From the NCBI GenBank assembly GCA_964016885.1, contig OZ024756.1:15004001-15068000 (forward strand): a stretch of DNA of 64,000 nucleotides, read 5' to 3'. Within the stretch, counting starts at the first letter, position 1. Every line of letters starts with the position of its first letter. The translations under genes were made by a program, and so were the position numbers. Below, one piece after another: positions 3,296 through 50,549 of this stretch. The notes under the pieces were generated by a model that saw nothing but the letters and a program-made list of their open reading frames with translations, ran no database searches and was not told the origin of the DNA. Source of the stretch: Eledone cirrhosa. Its lineage: Eukaryota.

Positions 3296-3522
3296 GTATG
3301 GGTGGTGCTGACCTTACAGATGACCGAACAGTTTCAAAGTGTTACCACAACCTCATCAGAGTTCAAATATGATTACATCAATAGTGCATGTATATATATA
3401 TATATATATATATATAGTTATGTAATAAACACACACATATATATACACACATACACACACATATATATACACACACACACACATATATATACACACACAC
3501 ACACATATATATACACACATAC

Positions 3523-11650: not shown

Positions 11651-11717
11651 ATATATATATATAGATGAGATTCTACAGGACTAGAACTATTTCATTCTTT
11701 AGAAATCATCAGGAATC

Positions 11718-11772
11718 TGGGATTCCTGATGATTTCTAAAGAATGAAACAGTTCTAGTCCTGTAGAATCTCA
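11718..11772 (+). ncRNA. Type I hammerhead ribozyme, family B, within hairpin 11661-11777
   Basis: Stem I TGGGATTC/GAATCTCA, CTGATGA at 11726, stem II TTC-taaa-GAA, GAAA at 11745, stem III CAG/CTG, GTA triplet ending at 11764. Confidence 0.72.
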
Positions 11773-11852
11773 TCTATATTAAAACTTTTATACTCTGCAA
11801 TGTATTGAGTACCTTACTTACTGTGGTTACCTCCGATTCAACCCGGAATAAC

Positions 11853-12707: not shown

Positions 12708-12779
12708 CAAAGGGATATTAAAACTTGAACCGTTAAGGTCTCATTCCTGGATATGTCACTATTTATAAAACAAACTTTG

Positions 12780-12840
12780 TATTTTATCTGATGAGAGCGT
12801 ACCAAAGTTTTAGTACCCTTGAAATATATATAATAAAATA
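12780..12840 (+). ncRNA. Minimal type I hammerhead ribozyme, family A
   Basis: Perfect stem I TATTTTAT/ATAAAATA, CTGATGA at 12788, stem II GAGCGTAC/GTACCCTT, GAAA at 12821, palindromic TATATA, predicted cleavage after 12832. Confidence 0.78.
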
Positions 12841-12884
12841 AATATGGTTTTATAAAGATAGTTTCCATTTATTTAATATCATTG

Positions 12885-12915
<31 letters not shown>

Positions 12916-17899: not shown

Positions 17900-18650
17900 T
17901 CAAGAAATTGTGGGAGTATTGTCAAGAGGTTTATTCTTGTTTTGTAGACCTCGAAAAGGCATATAACTTGCTGTGGAAGGTTCTGCTGGAATATGAGATC
18001 GATAATCAGCTCCTTGCTGCTCTGATATCTCGATACGAATGCCTGAGTTTTGTGTTCGGATAAATGATTCTAAATCGAAACCATTCAATGTTGTAGTCGG
18101 ACTCTGCCAAGCGTGCATTCTGTCACCTCTTCTGTTCATTATTTACATAAACAGATTGACATGCACAACCGGGTTGGAGATAGTATCAAGACTGTTGAGT
18201 ATAAAATTAGTCGGCTGGAATTTGCAGACGAGATGGTGTTACTTAACTCGGAAGGAGGTGATCTCCGACTTCCACTGGATAGGTTTGATGCCAAGTGCTG
18301 CATGGTTGGAATGAAAATCAGTGCTGCGAAAACTGAGACACTTGTCCTCTCAAAGAGGCCTGCCCAGTGCACACTACATGTGAATAGAGTTCCACTGAGG
18401 AAGGTAGAGAAGTTCAAGTACCTCGGGGCCGTGTTCACGAGTGATGGAAGGCAGGAAGTTGAATTAAGTGCAAGAATTGCAGGAGCTGGTGCAGTAATGT
18501 GCCAGCTTCCGGATTCGGTAATCAGAAGAAGGGAGGTAGGTGTAAAAGCCAAACTCGATTTCTTCAATTCAGCATTTGTGCCAACCCTTACCTATGGTCA
18601 TGAATCTTGGGTAATGACTAAAAGAATACAATCGCCAATACAAACGTTGG
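17900..18650 (+). mobile_element. RTE-clade LINE reverse transcriptase fragment (frameshifted)
   Basis: FVDLEKAY, GLCQACILSPLLF, LEFADEMVLL (YADD equivalent), EKFKYLG, PTLTYGHESW. Confidence 0.88.
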
Positions 18651-18788
18651 CTACATATATGTATCTGTGACTATGTCTAAATATATATATGTCCTTATGA
18701 CTTTCTTCTATATTCCCTAACGGTTGAGTAAACCTTAGACGGTAACTAATTGCTTTTTCTACCAATGAACTTACTTGCCACCGGCCTT

Positions 18789-19030
18789 CCCTTCACAACA
18801 TTTCTATCTTGACCGCTAGCCACGTGATGTTTTCCACCCCTTTTGAATTCGTTACTGACGGCAATCAATTTGGAAATGTTGGTCCTAACTAAGGGAATCT
18901 CCCTAACCCTAACCCTAACCCTTCACAACATTTCTATCTTGACCGCTAGCCACGTGATGTTTTCCACCCCTTTTGAATTCGTTACTGACGGCAATCAATT
19001 TGGAAATTTTGGTCCTAACTGAGGGAATCT
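18789..19030. repeat. 112-bp tandem duplication with (CCCTAA)3 at the junction
   Basis: Copies at 18789-18900 and 18919-19030 differ at 2 positions. Telomeric repeats occupy 18901-18918. Confidence 0.9.
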
Positions 19031-19354
19031 CTTGAAAAGCTCGGAGCCTTATGGATAATACGACGATTAGACATTTCTACAAAGTACGAGCGAAACTATC
19101 GATAGTAGGGATTGGGAGAATTTTTGGTAACCTTTATCTATTTTCTTCTTCAAACTTACATTTTAGACTTAGCTCCGTTTAATTGAGTATTTTTCTAGTT
19201 AATTTCTACAGACTTAGAGGAAAGACTAGGTAAACTTTATCTGACTCTACCTCATAAAGGAATATTGGTAACATTTATCTGTTATTTCTTCAAAGTTACA
19301 TTTTAAACTTAGCTCCGTTTAAATGATTATTTATCTGGTTGATTTCTCCGGACT

Positions 19355-19563
19355 AAGAAGAACAAAGTGGATAAAACTATACGAACACGCCAGACAAAAA
19401 CATGACGTTAATACAGACAACATAGAAATTAAAATAATATCGAAGCATAGAAATGACTCAACAGGTAGGCAAATCGCAACTGAGATAGAACTAAGAAAAC
19501 CGAAGTTGAACAGAAAACACGAATGGAATAACAACAACAACCATACCCAAACAAAGGGAAATA

Positions 19564-19594
<31 letters not shown>

Positions 19595-20020
19595 ATACAG
19601 AAGTACAATAACAACAAAGACACATAAACACACATTAGTGAACAAAGATAGAATACAAAAACACATACACTCAAAAAGAGGAAACTCACACGCAAACGCA
19701 TGCACAAACAGAGACAGAGACAAGGATAAATACATTAATTAATTAAATAAAGATGGCGTAGGCATTACAATACAACGGGAGGAAACATAATAGTACCACT
19801 GATGATGTCACAGATGTGTGACGAAAGAACTTTGATAGACTATATATATATTTATATCTGTATTTTTAACTGTTGGGTAATCAATGATAAACATTGATCG
19901 CCAGATAAATTAACTATGGAGATATAAAAGATACAGAAGCGAAAACCAACCAAACAGTGAGTGTGTTCTGTTATTATTTCTGGCAATATTATAACAATAT
20001 GACCCTCCTCATATATAACA
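19355..20020 (+). mobile_element. Penelope-like element 3' end: GIY-YIG C-terminus plus HHR-containing pseudo-LTR (pLTR)
   Basis: LYEHARQKH..IKIISKH...RQIA.EI..KPKLNRKHEW fits the Penelope endonuclease C-terminal pattern. CTGATGA-T-GTCACA gatg TGTGAC-GAAA lies at 19799-19826. Confidence 0.7.
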
Positions 20021-20028
20021 ATATATAT

Positions 20029-20076
<48 letters not shown>

Positions 20077-20214
20077 AGTGTTACGGGAAGTTACTGTAGG
20101 TTCACCCGGGTGAGCACTCGATGTTTAGGTTCACGTCAGTAGCGAAGTCTAGAGCTAGACAGAGTGTAATATAATAATACAAGGACAATTTGTTAAGCCT
20201 TCATTACATTTAAT

Positions 20215-20336
20215 GATTGGTGACGCGCGTTTCGCTATTGATCAGCTCAAGGTTCGATCTATATCCATCTGGCCCGACTCTAGAATCAAAAGCTCGTAGG
20301 ACCTCTGTTGTAGTAATGACAGAATTTGTCATTACT

Positions 20337-20342
<6 letters not shown>
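20215..20342 (-). ncRNA. Degenerate HHR with terminal hairpin
   Basis: Minus strand: CT-ACGA-GCTTTTGAT...ATCAATAGC-GAAA-CGCGCG-TC. A perfect hairpin TGTTGTAGTAATGACA/TGTCATTACTACAACA lies at 20307-20342. Confidence 0.45.
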
Positions 20343-20395
<53 letters not shown>

Positions 20396-20432
20396 TTTAT
20401 AAACAACAACCAAAGACTGTTTAAAACATTTA

Positions 20433-20480
20433 ATCGCTTACGATCGTTTCATCCTAACACAAGGTCGTGTCATCGGAGTA
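20433..20480 (-). ncRNA. HHR-like motif with CCGATGA core
   Basis: Minus strand: ACT-CCGATGA-...-GAAA-CGATCG-TA-AGC. Confidence 0.45.
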
Positions 20481-20689
20481 TATAATAAAGGTTGAGCAAA
20501 TATATCAGAAGTTTGTCATAAGAACATTAAGAGGATACATAATATGGGAAGTAAGCATAAGTATCGACATTCATATAAGAAAAGATAGTAAAGGTGGTAG
20601 AAGAAACATGAAAAATATGAGCATATAAATGCAATAAAATAAAATTAGGAGCAGCTAAAAGCATTAAAAACTTTGAATTAAATTAAATT

Positions 20690-21560
20690 TATTATATAGG
20701 AATGAGATTTTTTCCACTTTTTAAACCTAGTAACTAACTTATACCAATGTAGAGTTATACCTTATTTTTTTTTAAACATTAGTATTGCATTTTTATAGCA
20801 TCCCCATTCTGATCCCTTCAATTTTTATTATAATTTATTATAACCACCCGTTCACATTTAGGCATCGTATTATTTTATTATATTATTATATTATTTTATT
20901 ATATTATTTTTAATAAGCCCCACTTTTATTTGAATTTATTTTTGCTAATATTATACTATATATTAACCATTACCTCACTCTCTATTTTTTCAGTAGTATA
21001 TCTTCAATAGGTATATAATTTATTAATATTTAATTAACTAGTATAATTTTTTATCCTTTGATATTATTTAACATCTGTATATAATTTTTTTAATAATACA
21101 TAGCATTTTAGTATACACTGATAAATTATTTTATTTGTATTTTGTAAATATATTATTTTTAAAATAATTTTTAACAGTTCTTTAGTTCTATAATCATTGG
21201 CCCTAAATAAGTTTTTTAAGTAATTACATCTTGACTTACTAAAAAAATAATTTTCAACAGTTCTTTAGTTCTATAATCATTGGCCCTAAATAAGTTTTTT
21301 AAGTAATTACATCTTGACTTACTAAATACTTATTTTTCCCTTTAATAATTTGAAACTCTCTTATAAAAGATATTTATGAATTACCTCCCTTTTATTCTTA
21401 ATTTTGTATCAACTGTCAGCTAACGATAAATTTTCAAAGTCTATATTAAGATGGAGTTATTTATGCATATAAGACTTTCTTCCCTCTATTCATTCTATAG
21501 GCTTGTTTGTGTCTGGCTGGTTCGTCTTCAGATTTGATGTAATTTTTGTTGTTTTAACAC
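20690..21560 (-). mobile_element. Possible highly decayed Penelope-like ORF; contains an 84-bp tandem duplication (21160-21325)
   Basis: A-rich minus strand with LYIGIS/TRFKKWKKSH (GIY-YIG-like) upstream of the HHR-like motif at 20433. The support is weak. Confidence 0.28.
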
Positions 21561-21693
21561 TGGTCTGACGATCAGGCAGACTTGGAGTCTGGTCAGGGAT
21601 GATCCCAGATCAAGAGCCGGCTGCCTGGGAAACATTTGTAACCGGGTTGAGCAATAAATCTCATATGTAACACTTCCACTTTGTTATTATATA

Positions 21694-21726
<33 letters not shown>

Positions 21727-21728
<2 letters not shown>

Positions 21729-22108
21729 AAGGCGGGTAAAATTCCCGAGATCCATGGACGAGTTCTCTCCAGCGGTCTCTGTCCCTCATTATCGCTGCCA
21801 TGTCCTGCGTCTCCAACAGACCAGTGTCTGTCCTTAGGGCATCAACATACGTTAACCTTGGTCTTCCTCTTCTAGTGTGTCCATGTAGGGGCTCCCACAG
21901 GAGCACTGAGTGCAATGTCAACTCTGGATGTCGGTGAGCATGTCCAGCTAACCTCAGTCTCCTCTGTAGTGGAGTCTGTGCTGCTGTATGGGTCTGAGAC
22001 TTGGACACTGACCAAGAAACTCACTCAGATGGTGGATGGGTGCTACACGAGAATGCTGAGGATGGCTCTGAACATTAATCAGTATACACTGAGGATGAAA
22101 ACTCAGAG

Positions 22109-22110
<2 letters not shown>
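21727..22110 (-). mobile_element. RTE-type LINE 3' fragment with inverted 5' segment
   Basis: Minus 21727-21966 encodes RRLRLAGHAHRH..LLWEP..GRPRLTYVD. Plus 21963-22105 encodes SVVESVLLYGSETWTLTK..GCYTRMLR. Both flanks are (TA)n. Confidence 0.85.
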
Positions 22111-22142
<32 letters not shown>

Positions 22143-22146
<4 letters not shown>

Positions 22147-22280
22147 TTAATTAATTAATTATACTATTTATGGTTATGTAAATACAAAAACCTTTTGCAG
22201 TTATATATATTTTTTTATACAAACCCTAAATAGTGGTAGGCAGTAATATATTACTACCTTATTACCAGTAAGTTAAGTAA
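22143..22280. repeat. (TA)n-embedded dispersed repeat, second copy at 33805-33925
   Basis: Shared ATACTATTTA.GGTTATGTA...AAACCCTAAA.AGTG...ATTACTACCTTATTACCAGTAAG. Confidence 0.7.
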
Positions 22281-22298
22281 TATATATATATATATATA

Positions 22299-22590
22299 TT
22301 GTTATACTTGGGGAGGGTCATATTGTTGTAATAATATTGCCAGAAATAATAACAGAACACATTCACTGTTTGGTTGGTTTTCGCTTCTGTATCTTTTATA
22401 TCTCCACAGTTAATTCATCCGATCCTCAATGTTTATCATTGACTGACCAACGGTCAAAAATACAGATATAATATAGATATAAACACATATATATAGTCTA
22501 ACAAAGTTTTTTCGTTGCACATCTGCAACATAATCAGTGGTACTATTATGTTCCTCCTGTTGTATTGTATGTCTACGCCATCTTTATTTT
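22299..22590 (-). mobile_element. Solo copy of the pLTR seen at 19745-20020, opposite orientation
   Basis: Alignable over ~280 bp. HHR-like CTGATTA-T-GTTGCA gatg TGCAAC-GAAA at 22537-22510. The terminal motif ATGACCCTCCC.AAGTATAACAA also occurs at 40315 and 46305. Confidence 0.78.
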
Positions 22591-22852
22591 ATCGGTTTAT
22601 TTACATATATATGTGTGTGTGTGCGTGCATGTGTGTGTGTGTAATTGTTAGGATGTAATTGTTCATTAGAATATTAGAACAATGGTTAATAGAGACGAGG
22701 AGGAGGAAGAAGAAGAAGAAAATAAGTCAACATTTGTTTTATATTAGAATAAATGCATTGATTATTGTGTAATGTGTGAAGCAGGTAAAGTGTTTCACAG
22801 GTGAACTGTCTACCGAATACAAAGCTACTGGGGGCTGGTATATGTGTGGAGG

Positions 22853-23882: not shown

Positions 23883-24125
23883 CCCAACTTGTAGAAAACT
23901 TATAATGAAACAATTGTTTGGAAAGGGAGATATATTTTAATTATGTCTCTTATAAAATAATACTACTGGCTATCCGCAAAATACATATAGTTAGCACCCC
24001 AAACGTAAAATTGGGATTATACTAAGGTATATCGTAATGTTTGTTGAGTGAGATGGAAGCCAGTCAGAGTATAGCTTAAAGCTTTCTCTGTTAATGTATT
24101 GAATATATATATATATATATATATA

Positions 24126-25190
24126 TAAGAGACGTAAAATAAGAAAATTATAAAATTAACTTACTTACTAAAATATCACTTCCAACTAATTAGTTTATGG
24201 AATGGAGTAAATATATTTTCCGAAGAATAATATCGAGAAGCATTCCGTCGTCAGGAAAGTCTATTCTCATGTAAGTTTCTAGGCAAAGCGAGGACACTGG
24301 AAACTTATTAAAAAATAATTCAGTGGATAGGAAATAGCGAAGCGTGGACTGAATTCCAAGCCATTGAGAAAATCACTGCCTCTACGTCTGTGGCAAATTC
24401 AAAAAGAATCGAACACGTGACATCGAGGTCAATCAGTGGAAAGTGGTTTGCTAATAAGACAGCGGCCTGCCTACAACCGTAGCAGCAGTCATGGCCAATA
24501 TTGCTCGACAAATAATTTGGAGATAATAATAAAGAATTCATATCTAGTAACATATATATACATACAGATGCATATCAATGCTAGCAAATATATAGGTTTT
24601 GTCTTAATAACAGTGTGGTTCAATGCATGGGGTTGCAGAACAATAATATAAGAGACGTAAAATAAGAAAATTATAAAATTAACTTACTTACTAAAATATC
24701 ACTTCCAACTAATTAGTGTAGGCAGGCCGCTGTCTTATTAGCAAACCACTTTCCACTGATTGACCTCGATGTCACGTGTTCGATTCTTTTTGAATTTGCC
24801 ACAGACGTAGAGGCAGTGATTTTCTCAATGGCTTGGAATTCAGTCCACGCTTCGCTATTTCCTATCCACTGAATTATTTTTTAATAAGTTTCCAGTGTCC
24901 TCGCTTTGCCTAGAAACTTACATGAGAATAGACTTTCCTGACGACGGAATGCTTCTCGATATTATTCTTCGGAAAATATATTTACTCCATTCCATAAACT
25001 AATTAGTTGGAAGTGATATTTTAGTAAGTAAGTTAATTTTATAATTTTCTTATTTTACGTCTCTTATATTATTGTTCTGCAACCCCATGCATTGAACCAC
25101 ACTGTTATTAAGACAAAACCTATATATTTGCTAGCATTGATATGCATCCGTATGTATATATATGTTACTAGATATGAATTCTTTATTATA
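24126..25190. repeat. Complex inverted duplication A-x-B-a-A'-B' in (TA)n, carrying a degenerate HHR
   Basis: 24127-24475 is the reverse complement of 24717-25065, and 24527-24716 is the reverse complement of 24998-25188. CTGACGA at 24938 is followed by CGGAATG..CATTCCA-TAAA-CTAATTAG. Confidence 0.88.
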
Positions 25191-25208: not shown

Positions 25209-25342
25209 CGTAGGTCCCGGGTTGAGTCGGGGATAACCACAGTAAGTAAGGTACTCAATACATGGCAGAGTAAAATTTTTTTATTCCTGAAGATTTCATC
25301 TGAATGAAACAGTACTAGTCCTGTAGAAGCTCCTTCTATAAA
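25209..25342. mobile_element. Family B element, rearranged (inverted tail then forward HHR)
   Basis: TTC-CTGAAGA(25287)-TTTC atct GAAT-GAAA-CAG tactagtc CTG-TA-GAA, preceded by the reverse-complement tail. Confidence 0.68.
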
Positions 25343-25702
25343 ATAAAAATAAATATATATATATAGTCAGATCTGCATATTAGCAGAGCCACTGATCAGC
25401 CAGATTTACAGATCAGCAGACTGGCCAGTCAGTTTCCTGTATACGAGTGATAAATGGCCGGCTTTGACACATTCAAAATAAAAAATAATAAAAACTTTAC
25501 CTGCCAACACAAGAATAAGAATGAAGGGTTCATTCTACTGACATGGCTTTAAAAATGAGGCTTGTTTGCATAATTGCAAACGTACCAAATGTTATTATTA
25601 ATATTCGAAAAACTCAGATTACATTTATTGTATTCAGCCATGTAGAGCGAACATTTTTTTTTCTTTTTATATATATACATATTCATATACATATATATAT
25701 AT

Positions 25703-34853: not shown

Positions 34854-36620
34854 TCTTTTACTCTTTTACCTGTTTCAGCCATCCGGCTGAGGCCATGCTG
34901 GGGCACCGCCCTTGTTGCTACACATTTTATCTCCAGCCTGTATAGGTTGGCCACTGGTGTAGGAGGGAGTTTGTTGCTGCTGCCCTTAGGTTTCCCTCGT
35001 GTCTTGCTGTGGGCTCATCCGGGATCCTGGATAACAAGGTGTCGAGATGTTTCTTAAAGACATCCACCTCCACGTCATGCAAGTCTCGCAGATGCCTCGG
35101 CAGCCTGTTGAAGAGTTGAGGGCCCTTGAATCCCAGGCTATTGCAATACCTGCTCCTTATTCTAGATGTGGAAGACGGGACCTTTGGCACCACACAGTGA
35201 CGTCCTGTTCGACGGTTGGTCCAGCTCCCAATGCCAAAGTTTGGTGCTAGTCCCTCCAGGATTTTCCACATGTAGATCACTGCGTATCTCTCCCGTCTTC
35301 GCTCCAAGGAGTAGAGGTTCAGTTCCTTCAGCCTCTCCCAGTAGCTTGTCTCCCTCATCTTGGCAATCCTCTTGGTGTAGCTTCGCTGGATTGCCTCAAG
35401 CTCTGTGGTTAGTTTGACACTATGGGGTGACCACAGCTGGGAGCAGTAGTCCAGGCGGCTTAGGACAAAAGTCCTCCACAGTGTCAACATGGTGTCTCGA
35501 TCTCTTGTAAGGAAAGTCCTCAAGATCCAGCCAGCGAATCGTCTACATGCTGTCGCCACCTTCATGATGTGTGAAGAAAAAGATGCATCATCGCTCATGT
35601 CTATGCCCAGGTCTCGTATCGATTTTGACACGGGGATATCGGTCCCTCCTGGTCCTGTGTAGCTGTGTTCCGCTATATTTGTGTTTGTGTTTGCAGGTTT
35701 GTATTGTAGGGCTTGGAATTTGCCAGCATTAAACTGCATGTTGTTTTCTTCCGCCCATCTGTATATGGCATCCAGATCCTGCTGTAAGAGGGCAGCGTCA
35801 GCCGGGTTTTTGATTGCCTGTGCTACCTTAGTGTCATCAGCATAGCTAGTGAGGGATGTTGTTGCATGCACCACAGAGGGCATGTCCGAGAGAGCCACCA
35901 AAAACAGTAGTGGTCCCAGGACTGTCCCCTGAGGCACCCCACTTGTTATCGGTGTCTCCCTCGAGAGGGCCCTATTTGCTGCGACTGCCTGGCTTCTGTC
36001 CCTCAGGAAGCCATGCAGCCACTCACCTACTTTTCCAGTTATGCCGAGTCCGTGTAGTTTGTGACATATCATTCCGTGGTCGACCTTGTCAAAGGCCTTC
36101 GCAAAGTCAAGATATATCACGTCTACATGTGAGCTGTCTAGTAGCTGTCTCAGTACCCAGTCGTAGTGATGTAGCAGCTGTGTAAGGCAGCTTCTTCCTG
36201 GGCGGAAGCCATGTTGCGTGCTAGTCAGGCGATCATTTTCTTCGAGGAAAGTGATTAGTTTCTTTCTGACGACTCGCTCCATGACCTTACTGATATGCGA
36301 CGTCAGGGAGACTGGCCTATAGTTCTTGGCCTCCGCTCTACTACCTCCTTTATGGATAGGGCATATTGTGCCTTCTTTCAGCTCCCCGGGTAGTACACCG
36401 CTAGCCAAGGAGCTTCTGAAGAGCATCTTCAGTGGAGTTGCTAAGGCCCGCTTACATATTTTTAGGAGAACTGCTGGGAATCCATCAGGTCCAGCAGCCG
36501 AGTCTGTTCTAATTTCATCAATGGCGTACACCACATCCTCCTCCGTTATGTCTATGTGGTTGATGGTTGCCATTTCTTGATGTAGTGTTGTGGCATCAAA
36601 GAACTCCTCTGGCTTCGTTA
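34851..36620 (-). mobile_element. 5'-truncated CR1-clade LINE with an uninterrupted RT ORF (34927-36620)
   Basis: [62 protein letters not shown]. The 3' UTR GGCGGTGCCCCAGCATGGCC...GCTGAAAC ends in (TAAAAGAG)2. Inserted in (TA)n. Confidence 0.93.
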
Positions 36621-36633
36621 TTTGCATATATAT

Positions 36634-36688
<55 letters not shown>

Positions 36689-36888
36689 TATATATATATG
36701 TATATATATATGTATATGTGTGCATGTTTTTGTGTGTGTATGCGTGTGCATGTGTGAATATGTTTGTGTGTCTGTATATATATGTATATATATATATATG
36801 TATATGTGCATGTGTTTGTGTGTGTATGCGTGTATATGCGTGTGCATGTGTGAATATGTTTGTGAGTCTATATATATATATATATGTG

Positions 36889-40081: not shown

Positions 40082-40152
40082 TATTTTATTATGCGCATTT
40101 CAAAAACAAATATCATCATGCAATAACATTTGTGTTTTCATCAGATAAAATA
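40082..40152 (-). ncRNA. Complete minimal type I hammerhead ribozyme
   Basis: TATTTTAT-CTGATGA-AAACACAAATGTTAT tgcatg ATGATATTTGTTTTT-GAAA-TGCGCA-TA-ATAAAATA. Confidence 0.8.
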
Positions 40153-40293: not shown

Positions 40294-40336
40294 GTATAAA
40301 TATATATTGGCAACATGACCCTCCCAAAGTATAACA

Positions 40337-40396
<60 letters not shown>

Positions 40397-40487
40397 ATAT
40401 ACCTATACATTCATATGTGTATATACATATATATCGATATGAATGTATATACGTACGTATATATGCATATAAATATATATATATATA

Positions 40488-40834
40488 TACGATATTAATA
40501 AATGGAAACTATAATTATAAAACCATATTTATTTCATTATACATATTTCAGGGATACCAAATTAAATTATGGTATGCCTTCATCAGACAAAATACAATAT
40601 ATAACAGTTTTACAAATAAGCTTTGACGTACCCTATTAAAATGCAACCAAAAATAATGGCTTCAAAAAATAATGGTTGCATTTTAATAGGGTACGTCAAA
40701 GCTTATTTGTAAAACTGTTATATATTGTATTTTGTCTGATGAAGGCATACCATAATTTAATTTGGTATCCCTGAAATATGTATAATGAAATAAATATGGT
40801 TTTATAAATATAGTCTCCATTTATTAATATCGTA
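40488..40834. mobile_element. ~160-bp-arm inverted repeat with a family A HHR on each strand (plus 40728-40792, minus about 40530-40594)
   Basis: CTGATGA-AGGCATACCA..TGGTATCCCT-GAAA-TATGTA-TA. Flanked by ~85-bp direct repeats at 40390-40475 and 40952-41035. Confidence 0.85.
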
Positions 40835-41173
40835 TATCTACTCCAAATACTTGTCGAGTGCTTTATATCAGTTATAAAAATATTTACTTGTTGTATCCCA
40901 ACAATTTTAAATAGAACTTTTGCATATATATATATATATATATATATATTCACATATATATACCTATACATTCATATGTGTATATACATATATATCGATA
41001 TAAATGTATATACGTACGTATATATGCATATATACATATATATATAAGAAATAACATTTCGCTTCAAGCTTAGCTTTATACAATAGGTATAGAAATACGG
41101 TTTTAGGAAGCCGTAGGTATGCAAACACCGGGGTTATCGCCCTCTGGTGGTGTCCAGCAGAAGCAAGGGGGAC

Positions 41174-41219
41174 AACCGTCTATGCATTTCAGGCTTGACT
41201 GGCCTTCGTCAGGACGGTT
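41174..41219 (-). ncRNA. Canonical minimal type I hammerhead ribozyme in a retrozyme-like unit (41048-41450)
   Basis: AACCGTC-CTGACGA-AGGC cagtcaa GCCT-GAAA-TGCA-TA-GACGGTT. Stem I is extended by 41152-41167 pairing with 41230-41245. Confidence 0.85.
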
Positions 41220-46240: not shown

Positions 46241-46393
46241 CGCATATATATATATATATACGCATATATATATATATATATATATACGTTTCTGAATTTG
46301 TTAACATGACCCTCCCAAAGTATAACAATATATATATACGCATATATATATATATATATACGCATATATATATATATATATATATATATACGC

Positions 46394-49432: not shown

Positions 49433-50549
49433 CACCGAGTCAGCACTATCATATATTTTGATCATATATTTGGCAGCCATTTCAAGCGAAAAACATGCAA
49501 ATATCATCCTTCTTCGCGGGAAAGGCTATTCCCAGTGCCAAATATCTGTACAAATGGCTGTATCTATGACTGGTGTTCAAAAAACACCCATAATGCAACA
49601 ACAGGCGCTCCTAACCCAAACAAGTGGCATGAAAGATCATGCATGATAAGTGTTCAAACAGATCATATGATATGCCAACTTGCAGTGTCAAATCCAACTG
49701 CTTCCAGCTGATATATCCAAGCCCAACTTCGTCAGGACACAATCATATCATCTACCAAACAATGACATTGTGTTTAAGGAGTTATACCTTTGGGCTTTTT
49801 AAGCCAGCTGCCAAGCCTCAACTTACAAATAAAAGCATCAATGACCGTCTGTTGTTCTGTAACACCATCACTGGGGTGAAGTAATGTTTAAAGATGAAAC
49901 ATTAATTAGACAACTTGCCCCTTATAATCACCATGTAAAAAGACCACTTAGACATAGTCAGAATTCTCTTTATGTCAAACCAACAGTTAAAAATCACAAT
50001 CATTGAAGGTCTGGGCATCAATAAGCATAAAGGGACGAGCTGCACTGACCATAATTCCAGCAGGAAAGACTGTAAATGTAAACATGTATTTGGAAATCAT
50101 ACGAGCAAAGGGCCCATTATGGATGGCGAGGCATGGTTGCAAGATATATCAACAAAATAATGCTCCTTGCCATAGGGCAAAAACCATTAACCAATTCTTT
50201 CAAAAATCTGGTGTTGAAGTGTCGCAAATTTGGCCAGGTTCAAGTCCTGACTTAAACCCAATTGAAAACTGTTGCAAATTGATGAATGACAAAGTTGCCA
50301 AGATAAATCCCAGCTCAAATACTCATTTACAAAAAAAAATTCTTATTGTATGGACACAACACATTACTCCTGAACATTGTGCCTCCTTGGAGGGATCAAT
50401 GCCTTGCAGTAATTGCTGCTAAAGGTCATCAAACAAAGTACTAATTAGGAATAGACAATTTGTAGCATAACTTTTTGTGTTGGATGTTTTTATCTAATAA
50501 TTGTACCTTGTTCAACATTAATCTAACCTAATTATTGAGGTGGTCACTG
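49433..50549 (+). mobile_element. Decayed Tc1-family transposon (DDE transposase pseudogene)
   Basis: VWASIS.KG, YQQNNAPCHRAK, WPGSSPDLNPIEN. The upstream part is frameshifted and TIRs were not resolved. Confidence 0.82.

What the first reader, a model, noticed from the sequence alone, without database searches (positions are those of the whole stretch)
19355..22590. GIY-YIG C-terminus followed by an HHR pLTR, and a sister copy with compensatory stem changes
Seen: a Penelope-type endonuclease tail (H..KH...IKII...R....EI...KPKLN.K.EW) precedes CTGATGA-T-GTCACA gatg TGTGAC-GAAA. The inverted solo copy at 22299-22590 has GTTGCA gatg TGCAAC, so two base pairs have changed on both sides and pairing is kept, although its core is mutated to CTGATTA. 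Inference: this is selection on RNA structure in the master elements, and it links the HHR elements to PLEs as the mobiliser.
Basis: partly seen in the sequence, partly recalled or inferred. Interest (0 to 1): 0.72.

Follow-up and report, generated by a model that had tools for sequence, protein, structure and literature searches.

The report
Truncated Penelope retrotransposon with hammerhead ribozyme
Two broken copies of a very common repeat in an animal genome carry a hammerhead-ribozyme motif whose stem differs by a matched swap of two base pairs; they are likely leftovers of a Penelope-like jumping gene, an already described arrangement, and the swap hints at but does not prove selection on the RNA fold.

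Summary
Copy A (19365-20022, +) has a motif like the C-terminal half of a Penelope-type GIY-YIG endonuclease, then a minimal type I hammerhead (19799-19832), and ends in (TA)n. Copy B (22300-22592, -) is a 90% identical 3' fragment with a broken core. Stem II reads CA..TG in A and TG..CA in B.

Reads and contigs from four public runs show a high-copy family in which the four positions move together (about 2% in organism B, 57-73% and 89-97% in organism A). These are two master subfamilies, not per-copy CpG decay. It is still only one swap event: CpG hypermutation or template switching could produce it, and stem I does not covary cleanly.

No profile search hit the 54-aa tail. Its identity rests on a motif match to a published PLE alignment and a weak Atlas lead, and it is two residues short where the catalytic Glu should be.

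Hammerheads in PLE ends, solo copies and compensatory changes were described in 2014. Verdict: new member of a known kind, low interest.

The parts
19365..20022 (+). Copy A: likely 5'-truncated PLE insertion (endonuclease tail, 3' UTR, hammerhead, 3' end)
   Evidence: 5' junction against the unrelated duplication ending at 19362; 3' end shared with copy B and two short fragments; 19600-20010 is high-copy in 4 of 4 runs laid
19368..19529 (+). 54 codons resembling the C-terminal half of a PLE GIY-YIG endonuclease (H-x4-H, hydrophobic strand, R...P-x-L-N); R-to-P spacing 11 instead of 13, catalytic Glu apparently lost
   Evidence: By-eye match to Fig. S2 of PMC8557442; motif found once in the window and in 0 of 5000 local and 0 of 60 whole-window resamples, but the motif was set post hoc; Atlas lead PF01541 at 15% of members, score 0.90; no HMM hit
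19563..19597 (+). (ATAA)n microsatellite inside the 3' UTR, part of the family
   Evidence: TRF; 19452 reads of run X7 continue into this repeat before 19601 (table 7)
19790..19843 (+). Minimal type I hammerhead of copy A: stem I 19794-98/19833-37 with one C.A mismatch, core 19799-19805, extra U 19806, stem II 19807-12/19817-22, GAAA 19823-26, 2-bp stem III with a 2-nt loop, predicted cut after U19832
   Evidence: Sequence and pair listing; no Rfam hammerhead match; only stem II is stable in the MFE fold, z 0.39
20023..20073 (.). 12-nt duplication of the 3' end and (TA)n target tract
22300..22592 (-). Copy B: independent 3' fragment of the other subfamily, tail-to-tail with copy A, between (TA)n and (TG)n tracts
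   Evidence: 249 of 276 columns identical to A
22510..22537 (-). Decayed hammerhead core of copy B (G8 to U, G15.2 to A) with the TG..CA form of stem II
40311..40356 (+). About 46-nt 3'-end fragment of the same family followed by (TA)n
   Evidence: 93% to copy B; context printed
46303..46351 (-). About 49-nt 3'-end fragment of the same family next to (TA)n
   Evidence: 88% to copy B; context printed

Best explanation
Both copies belong to one high-copy repeat family carrying a minimal hammerhead motif, and are likely dead, 5'-truncated insertions of a Penelope-like retrotransposon with a C-terminal endonuclease, copied from two master subfamilies that differ by a two-base-pair swap in stem II, probably kept by selection on the RNA fold. 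Shown: family membership, high copy number, two stem II forms whose four positions move together, a 3' end at (TA)n, and decay of copy B's core. Inferred: an intact master elsewhere made an RNA; its RT-endonuclease nicked AT-rich DNA and reverse-transcribed from near the 3' end, stopping early after about 660 nt (A), 290 nt (B) or 45 nt (two more fragments). Also inferred: in tandem master transcripts the hammerhead folds as a dimer or with protein help and cuts after U19832. The CA..TG form is probably older, since it is near-fixed in organism B and shared with a more distant hammerhead family. The TG..CA form probably arose stepwise through G.U wobble and CpG-containing intermediates and then expanded in organism A.
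For:: laid records 9261 (X1), 286689 (X7), 1404 (X5), 110 (X6). B-type shares at 19809/19810/19819/19820: X1 0.57/0.61/0.73/0.68; X7 plus mates 0.97/0.94/0.89/0.90; X7 minus mates 0.53/0.55/0.49/0.37; X5 0.019/0.006/0.007/0.022; X6 0.02/0.02/0.025/0.025. Depth in X1 rises toward the 3' end: 16-80 thousand at 19600-19669, 250-500 thousand over the hammerhead, 1.1-1.6 million at 19936-19991. Of the 40 variant rows shown (of 105), 7 lie in 19799-19832, none at the 11 invariant core positions (chance about 0.046); they are N7, loop 2, the four swap sites and C11.1 to U (wobble). The endonuclease motif matches the Nematis and Poseidon rows of Fig. S2 and is rare in resamples. The architecture (long helix II, extra base between 9 and 10.1, G10.1-C11.1, tiny helix III, mostly solo copies) is that described in PMC4209133. 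U at the cleavage site occurs in 10 of 26 Hydra-clade rows of File S2.
Against: No HMM, phmmer, tblastn or PDB hit for the tail; the Atlas lead is weak (15% share, 129 of 256 features shared). One search gives per-site shares, not haplotypes, and hides 65 of 105 rows, so core variants may be hidden. X7 plus-mate depth is dominated by a RAD pile-up. The A-type depth in X6 comes from a short, very deep match over about 19796-19830 and may be another family. Stem I is not clean: T19794C (33% in X1, 87% in X7 plus) breaks a pair in my register, and A19835T (37% in X1) leaves a mismatch; only C19796T (35% in X5) restores one. Loop 3 (AA) is not palindromic. Only stem II is thermodynamically stable. 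Two subfamilies are one event.
Confidence: 0.72

Rival explanations
1. Same PLE family, but the stem II swap is mutational rather than selected. CpG deamination in a master copy, or one replication template-switch that copies one arm of the DNA hairpin onto the other, gave the matched change, and the new form spread by drift with a successful master.
For: All four changes are transitions between CA and TG, the two products of CpG decay. Window CpG observed/expected is 0.64-0.67. From a CG/CG state, decay keeps Watson-Crick pairing in both lineages one time in four (arithmetic). Template switching is reported to make multibase compensatory changes in stems (abstract of PMC8794818). There is only one independent event.
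Against: The shown variants avoid the core. At the CpG C19822-G19823, C-to-T is common (55% in X5, 12% in X1) while G-to-A is not among the 40 rows shown. An excess of C19819 over A19820 (5% in X1, 12% in X7 minus) hints at a wobble intermediate rather than a one-step switch, though the denominators differ.
Confidence: 0.3
2. The difference between A and B is per-copy neutral CpG decay of one master that had CG in both arms.
For: CA and TG are the CpG decay products; other A/B differences (19777, 19871) also sit in CpG contexts.
Against: The CG class is at most 0.6-0.7% in X5 and 3-10% in X7 plus mates. In X5 the left arm is 98% CA while the right arm is 98% TG, whereas independent decay would give near-equal TG and CA at each arm.
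Confidence: 0.04
3. The amplified unit is a non-autonomous hammerhead element (retrozyme or SINE-like) of about 280 nt that borrows PLE enzymes; the endonuclease-like tail is a relic or a chance neighbour in copy A.
For: The hammerhead and 3' part are several-fold deeper than 19600-19669. 109 reads of X7 (2 start places) jump from 19857 back to 19601, as in a tandem unit. The tail has no database hit and lacks the catalytic Glu. A 2026 preprint argues that animal retrozymes derive from PLE pLTRs.
Against: The depth gradient is also what 5' truncation gives. The family extends at least to the (ATAA)n at 19597, about 70 nt from the tail. Neither copy is in a tandem array. The tail is in the sense and position expected for a C-terminal endonuclease.
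Confidence: 0.15
4. The tail is not endonuclease-derived and the hammerhead motif is a chance hairpin in an AT-rich repeat.
For: No Rfam match, fold z-scores of 0.39, -0.87 and -0.40, no protein profile match.
Against: Complete core with the diagnostic extra base and G10.1-C11.1; 14 core motifs against 1.66 expected; pairing kept across subfamilies; motif absent from 5000 local resamples.
Confidence: 0.04

Closest known systems
Minimal hammerhead ribozymes (min-HHR) in pLTRs of metazoan Penelope-like elements (Cervera and De la Pena 2014, PMC4209133)
   Same: Type I core, long helix II, extra base between 9 and 10.1, G10.1-C11.1, short helix I, tiny helix III, many solo copies, families with covariation and compensatory changes
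   Different: Helix II is 6 bp (7-8 bp reported for Schistosoma), loop 3 is AA and not palindromic, predicted cleavage base is U; this family had no match in any collection searched
C-terminal EN+ PLE clades Nematis and Penelope/Poseidon (Craig et al. 2021, PMC8557442, Fig. S2)
   Same: H-x4-H, hydrophobic strand, R ... P-x-L-N order at the ORF end; hammerhead downstream; AT-rich or (TA)n insertion
   Different: This copy is two residues short between R and P and has no Glu at the catalytic position; RT and the GIY/YIG half are absent, so the clade cannot be set. It lacks the C-x-L-C-L-x-E-K pattern of the Hydra rows and the G-L-N ending of the Neptune and Naiad rows
PAc (Poseidon of Anolis carolinensis; PMC11167929)
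   Same: Hammerhead at the pLTR, AT-rich targets, short tail variation at the end
   Different: PAc is active and was tested in vitro, where hammerhead cleavage was protein-assisted and not needed for insertion; nothing here is tested or intact
Non-LTR retrozymes of animals (bioRxiv 10.64898/2026.07.22.740005)
   Same: Short type I hammerhead-bearing repeats related to PLE pLTRs, including solo monomers
   Different: Retrozymes are defined by tandem units without coding sequence; copies here are solo and copy A carries an endonuclease-like tail

Membership tests
Type I minimal hammerhead ribozyme | Core C3-U4-G5-A6-N7-G8-A9, G12-A13-A14, A15.1-U16.1, H17 | tested here: met
   Copy A 19799-19832, H17 = U; copy B fails at G8
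Type I minimal hammerhead ribozyme | Helix II with G10.1-C11.1 and an extra base after A9; pairing kept across copies | tested here: met
   6 bp in both copies; the four swap sites move together in 4 of 4 runs; per-site shares only, no haplotypes
Type I minimal hammerhead ribozyme | Helix I closing the cleavage site | tested here: inconclusive
   4 of 5 pairs in copy A; one family variant restores a pair, two do not
Type I minimal hammerhead ribozyme | Palindromic helix/loop III allowing a dimer | tested here: inconclusive
   A15.1-U16.1 and G15.2-C16.2 can pair, but loop AA is not self-complementary
Type I minimal hammerhead ribozyme | Match to an Rfam hammerhead model | tested here: not met
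   No hit at gathering score or at E up to 10. My recollection, not a call result: Rfam models miss such minimal forms, so this is weak
Type I minimal hammerhead ribozyme | Self-cleavage | not testable with these tools
   Needs an in vitro assay
Penelope-like element, C-terminal EN+ | GIY-YIG endonuclease at the ORF end (cd10442 type, with R, H, E, N residues) | tested here: inconclusive
   Motif order fits Fig. S2 rows and Atlas lead PF01541, but no HMM or homology hit, Glu missing; cd10442 not available
Penelope-like element, C-terminal EN+ | Telomerase-like PLE reverse transcriptase upstream | not testable with these tools
   Copy A is cut at about 19365; no genome held; upstream frames show no continuation
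Penelope-like element, C-terminal EN+ | Hammerhead in the 3' terminal segment, sense to the ORF | tested here: met
   270 nt downstream of the tail, about 190 nt before the 3' end, same strand
Penelope-like element, C-terminal EN+ | 5'-truncated copies, 3' end at AT-rich or (TA)n targets | tested here: met
   4 of 4 family pieces found in the window end at (TA)n; depth peaks at the 3' end in X1
Penelope-like element, C-terminal EN+ | Partial tandem forming pLTRs, or an inverted copy joined at the 5' end | tested here: not met
   A and B are tail-to-tail, 2.3 kb apart and of different subfamilies. Solo truncated copies are common in PLE families, so this does not count against origin
Non-LTR retrozyme | Tandem non-coding units each with a type I hammerhead | tested here: not met
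   No tandem of this unit in 18600-22800; only 109 reads from 2 start places suggest a tandem elsewhere

The most novel reading that the evidence does not exclude
This family records a stepwise, fully compensated replacement of two hammerhead stem II pairs between an older subfamily shared across species and a younger one that expanded in one species. It would be a natural experiment showing that the PLE hammerhead fold is selected during retrotransposition in vivo, although cleavage was dispensable for insertion in vitro (PMC11167929) and hammerheads have been suggested to be mere passengers of PLEs (PMC8557442).
Probability: 0.35. Interest if true: 0.4.

Novelty: new member of a known kind. 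Interest (0 to 1): 0.2.

Why it matters
It adds one more PLE-type hammerhead family, with a clear subfamily-level compensatory swap. The role of PLE hammerheads is still open (RNA processing, protein-assisted cleavage, or passenger), and a high-copy family with two stem II forms in related species is usable material for a proper covariation and cleavage test. The association itself, solo copies and compensatory changes within families have been in print since 2014, so a specialist would not be surprised.

Tried and rejected
Protein identity of the tail. All of these were empty: Pfam (only two sub-cutoff unrelated hits), NCBIfam, PHROGs, phmmer over 1.84 billion representatives (29; 0 hits at E 0.001), word-seeded searches for longer and near-length proteins (11, 30), tblastn-confirmed locus searches in metagenome and viral contigs (36, 52), PDB sequences (one de novo protein at E 0.57). 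A 54-aa diverged half-domain has little power, so these blanks are weak. A single-sequence AlphaFold model was unusable (pLDDT 54.7, pTM 0.19), so no fold search was run.

More copies for a haplotype alignment. No genome is held. Family patterns found nothing in metagenome, prokaryote genome or viral contigs. So R-scape-type covariation could not be run.

Rfam gave no hammerhead match; its weak snoZ5 and RAGATH-12 hits are chance. No RNA holder was listed. Earlier findings of the scan: nothing in 3 of 3 look-ups.

Rejected readings: per-copy CpG decay from a CG/CG master; copy B as the inverted partner of A's insertion (tail-to-tail, other subfamily); simple inversion of the hairpin (that would leave the arms unchanged and flip the loop, which is not seen); Hydra clade (motif absent); the upstream duplication as an inverted RT piece (a faint by-eye likeness to a recalled RT motif in one stop-ridden minus frame, not tested further).
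Full report
SETTING. The window is AT-rich and full of microsatellites, LINE and DDE fragments, so it reads as animal DNA (inference). No whole genome is held for it.

OBSERVATION. An 83-codon frame at 19323-19574 carries the quoted residues. The hammerhead core with a 6-bp stem II lies at 19799-19826. A minus-strand copy aligns over 19742-20044 versus 22592-22280, with 249 of 276 ungapped columns identical. In it, pairs 19809/19820 and 19810/19819 have changed on both sides and G8 is U. Copy B also has G15.2 changed to A, which breaks stem III. The core pattern occurs 14 times in the window against 1.66 expected; 0 of 100 shuffles reached 14.

ANATOMY. Copy A starts at about 19365, directly after an unrelated duplication (19124-19222 and 19265-19362, 85% alike). 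No reading frame continues upstream into GIY-YIG or RT sequence. It runs through an (ATAA)n tract at 19563-19597 and the hammerhead to a 3' end at 20022, followed by a 12-nt duplication and (TA)n. Copy B and two fragments of about 45 nt (40311-40356, 46303-46351) share that 3' end, and 4 of 4 abut (TA)n. A and B face each other tail to tail, 2.3 kb apart, so B is a separate insertion.

THE HAMMERHEAD. Copy A has the full core, an extra U between A9 and G10.1, G10.1-C11.1, a two-pair stem III with an AA loop, U at position 17, and a stem I with 4 of 5 pairs plus four more beyond a bulge. Only stem II is stable in the predicted fold; z-scores were 0.39, -0.87 and -0.40. Rfam has no match. This anatomy is that of the minimal hammerheads of metazoan PLEs in PMC4209133 (read: parts 1 and 2 of 4). 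[quoted passage not shown] U at the cleavage site is seen in 10 of 26 Hydra-clade rows of File S2 of PMC8557442.

THE ENDONUCLEASE TAIL. The fragment is 54 residues and lacks the GIY and YIG half, so these blanks are weak. The ESM Atlas recognised it as protein-like (2983). Its best hits (0.94) are unnamed eukaryote clusters, and the nearest cluster with a family has PF01541 GIY-YIG on 15% of members at 0.90 (one source, a lead only). By eye it follows the Nematis and Poseidon rows of Fig. S2 of PMC8557442 (34 rows seen). In four of those rows (PoseidonFr and three Nematis), R lies 4 before the catalytic E and P 9 after it, followed by x-L-N. Here R to P is 11 and no E sits at that place, so two residues including the catalytic Glu appear to be lost (inference). 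A motif set post hoc from that figure and the query hits the window once, at 19386, and 0 of 5000 local and 0 of 60 whole-window resamples; the post hoc choice inflates this. I put endonuclease origin at about 0.85.

THE STEM II SWAP. CA and TG are the two products of CpG decay, and the window is CpG-depleted (0.64-0.67). The first rival was therefore neutral decay of a CG/CG master. One search listed 9 runs; I laid 4 of them on 19600-20010 at 80% likeness. The family is high-copy (9261, 286689, 1404 and 110 records laid). B-type shares at 19809, 19810, 19819 and 19820 were: X1 (organism A contigs) 0.57, 0.61, 0.73, 0.68; X7 (organism A raw RAD reads) plus mates 0.97, 0.94, 0.89, 0.90 and minus mates 0.53, 0.55, 0.49, 0.37; X5 (organism B) 0.019, 0.006, 0.007, 0.022; X6 (organism C) 0.02, 0.02, 0.025, 0.025. 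The CG class is at most 0.7% in X5 and 10% in X7 plus mates. In X1 and X7 minus mates the per-site shares alone do not cap it, but the net excess is 3-12%.

LIMITS OF THAT RESULT. The shares are per site, not haplotypes. X7 plus mates are dominated by a RAD pile-up. The A-type depth in X6 comes from a short match about 9000 deep over the hairpin, against 50-280 in the neighbouring bins, and may be another family; its flanks look like organism A's majority type. X1 depth is summed contig depth, not copy number. Of 105 variant rows, 40 were shown. Seven shown rows fall in 19799-19832 and none at the 11 invariant positions (chance about 0.046), but core variants could be among the 65 hidden rows. 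Stem I is mixed: C19796T (35% in X5) restores a pair, A19835T (37% in X1) keeps a mismatch, and T19794C (33% in X1, 87% in X7 plus) breaks a pair in my register. A loose end in 14553 reads of X7 shows a further hammerhead family with another stem I flank and the CA form on the left arm, which suggests that CA..TG is the older state. From it, the TG..CA form needs four transitions, two of which would be CpG deaminations once the first pair has changed (inference). Two forms are one event, and template switching can make multibase compensatory changes (PMC8794818, abstract only). Selection is likely (about 0.6) but not demonstrated.

MECHANISM. By analogy with PAc (PMC11167929, 12 passages read), an intact master RNP would nick AT-rich DNA and reverse-transcribe from near the RNA's 3' end, and early stops would leave these fragments. 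The depth rise toward the 3' end in X1 fits this. The hammerhead would act in tandem master transcripts as a dimer or with protein help; in PAc its cleavage was protein-assisted and not required for insertion in vitro. Both copies here are dead as transposons, and B is also dead as a ribozyme (inference from G8).

KNOWN OR NEW. It works like, and most likely is, a C-terminal EN+ PLE with a minimal hammerhead. RT could not be tested and the endonuclease test is inconclusive, so the clade is open (Nematis- or Poseidon-like). The PLE-hammerhead link is in PMC4209133, PMC8557442 (12 passages and supplement parts 1, 2 and 55 of 59, plus one term search) and bioRxiv 10.64898/2026.07.22.740005 (part 1 of 5 read; its supplements were not seen and may list related families). 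Three paper searches showed no listing about this particular family, but they were not designed to exclude one. Verdict: new member of a known kind, interest 0.2.

Noticed in passing
window 11659-11779: Head-to-head inverted pair (59-nt arms, 98%, 3-nt spacer), each arm with a hammerhead-like core (11690-11712 minus, 11726-11748 plus); related copies at 499-622 and 25283-25359. Resembles the opposite-strand dual min-HHRs described for PLEs.
   Followed up: partly
window 40482-40840 and 12760-12900: Second hammerhead family: inverted pair with 168-nt arms (98%, 23-nt spacer; cores 40546-40586 minus, 40736-40776 plus) and an 80% identical solo copy at 12788-12824, with a clear stem I and a two-pair stem III; stem II differs between the copies.
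   Followed up: partly
window 24123-25189: Nested inverted duplication (353 nt at 100%, 195 nt at 99%) carrying a hammerhead-like core on each arm (24217-24254 minus, 24938-24975 plus); very recent, or an assembly artefact.
   Followed up: no
window 40098-40144 (-), 41187-41212 (-), 3332-3359 (-): Further solo hammerhead-like cores of other families; the one at 41187 has GC-rich stems.
   Followed up: no
window 34927-36867 (-): 646-codon open frame with a reverse transcriptase domain (PF00078, E 7e-30); LINE-type RT fragments also at 18074-18670 (weak PF00078) and, by eye, 21727-22154; DDE_3 fragment at 49991-50422.
   Followed up: no
window 19802-19807: Two ATG triplets overlap the hammerhead core and the start of stem II. 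In PAc the ORF starts at stem II, so the stem swap might also change codons; not tested.
   Followed up: no
window 19950-20008: Contigs of run X1 jump from about 20003-20007 back to 19950, i.e. the terminal 55 nt occur as partial tandems in some copies (table 5c).
   Followed up: no
window 18789-19031 and 19124-19362: Two local duplications upstream of copy A: a 130-nt unit with (CCCTAA)n between copies and a 99-nt match at 141-nt offset with no other copy in the window.
   Followed up: partly
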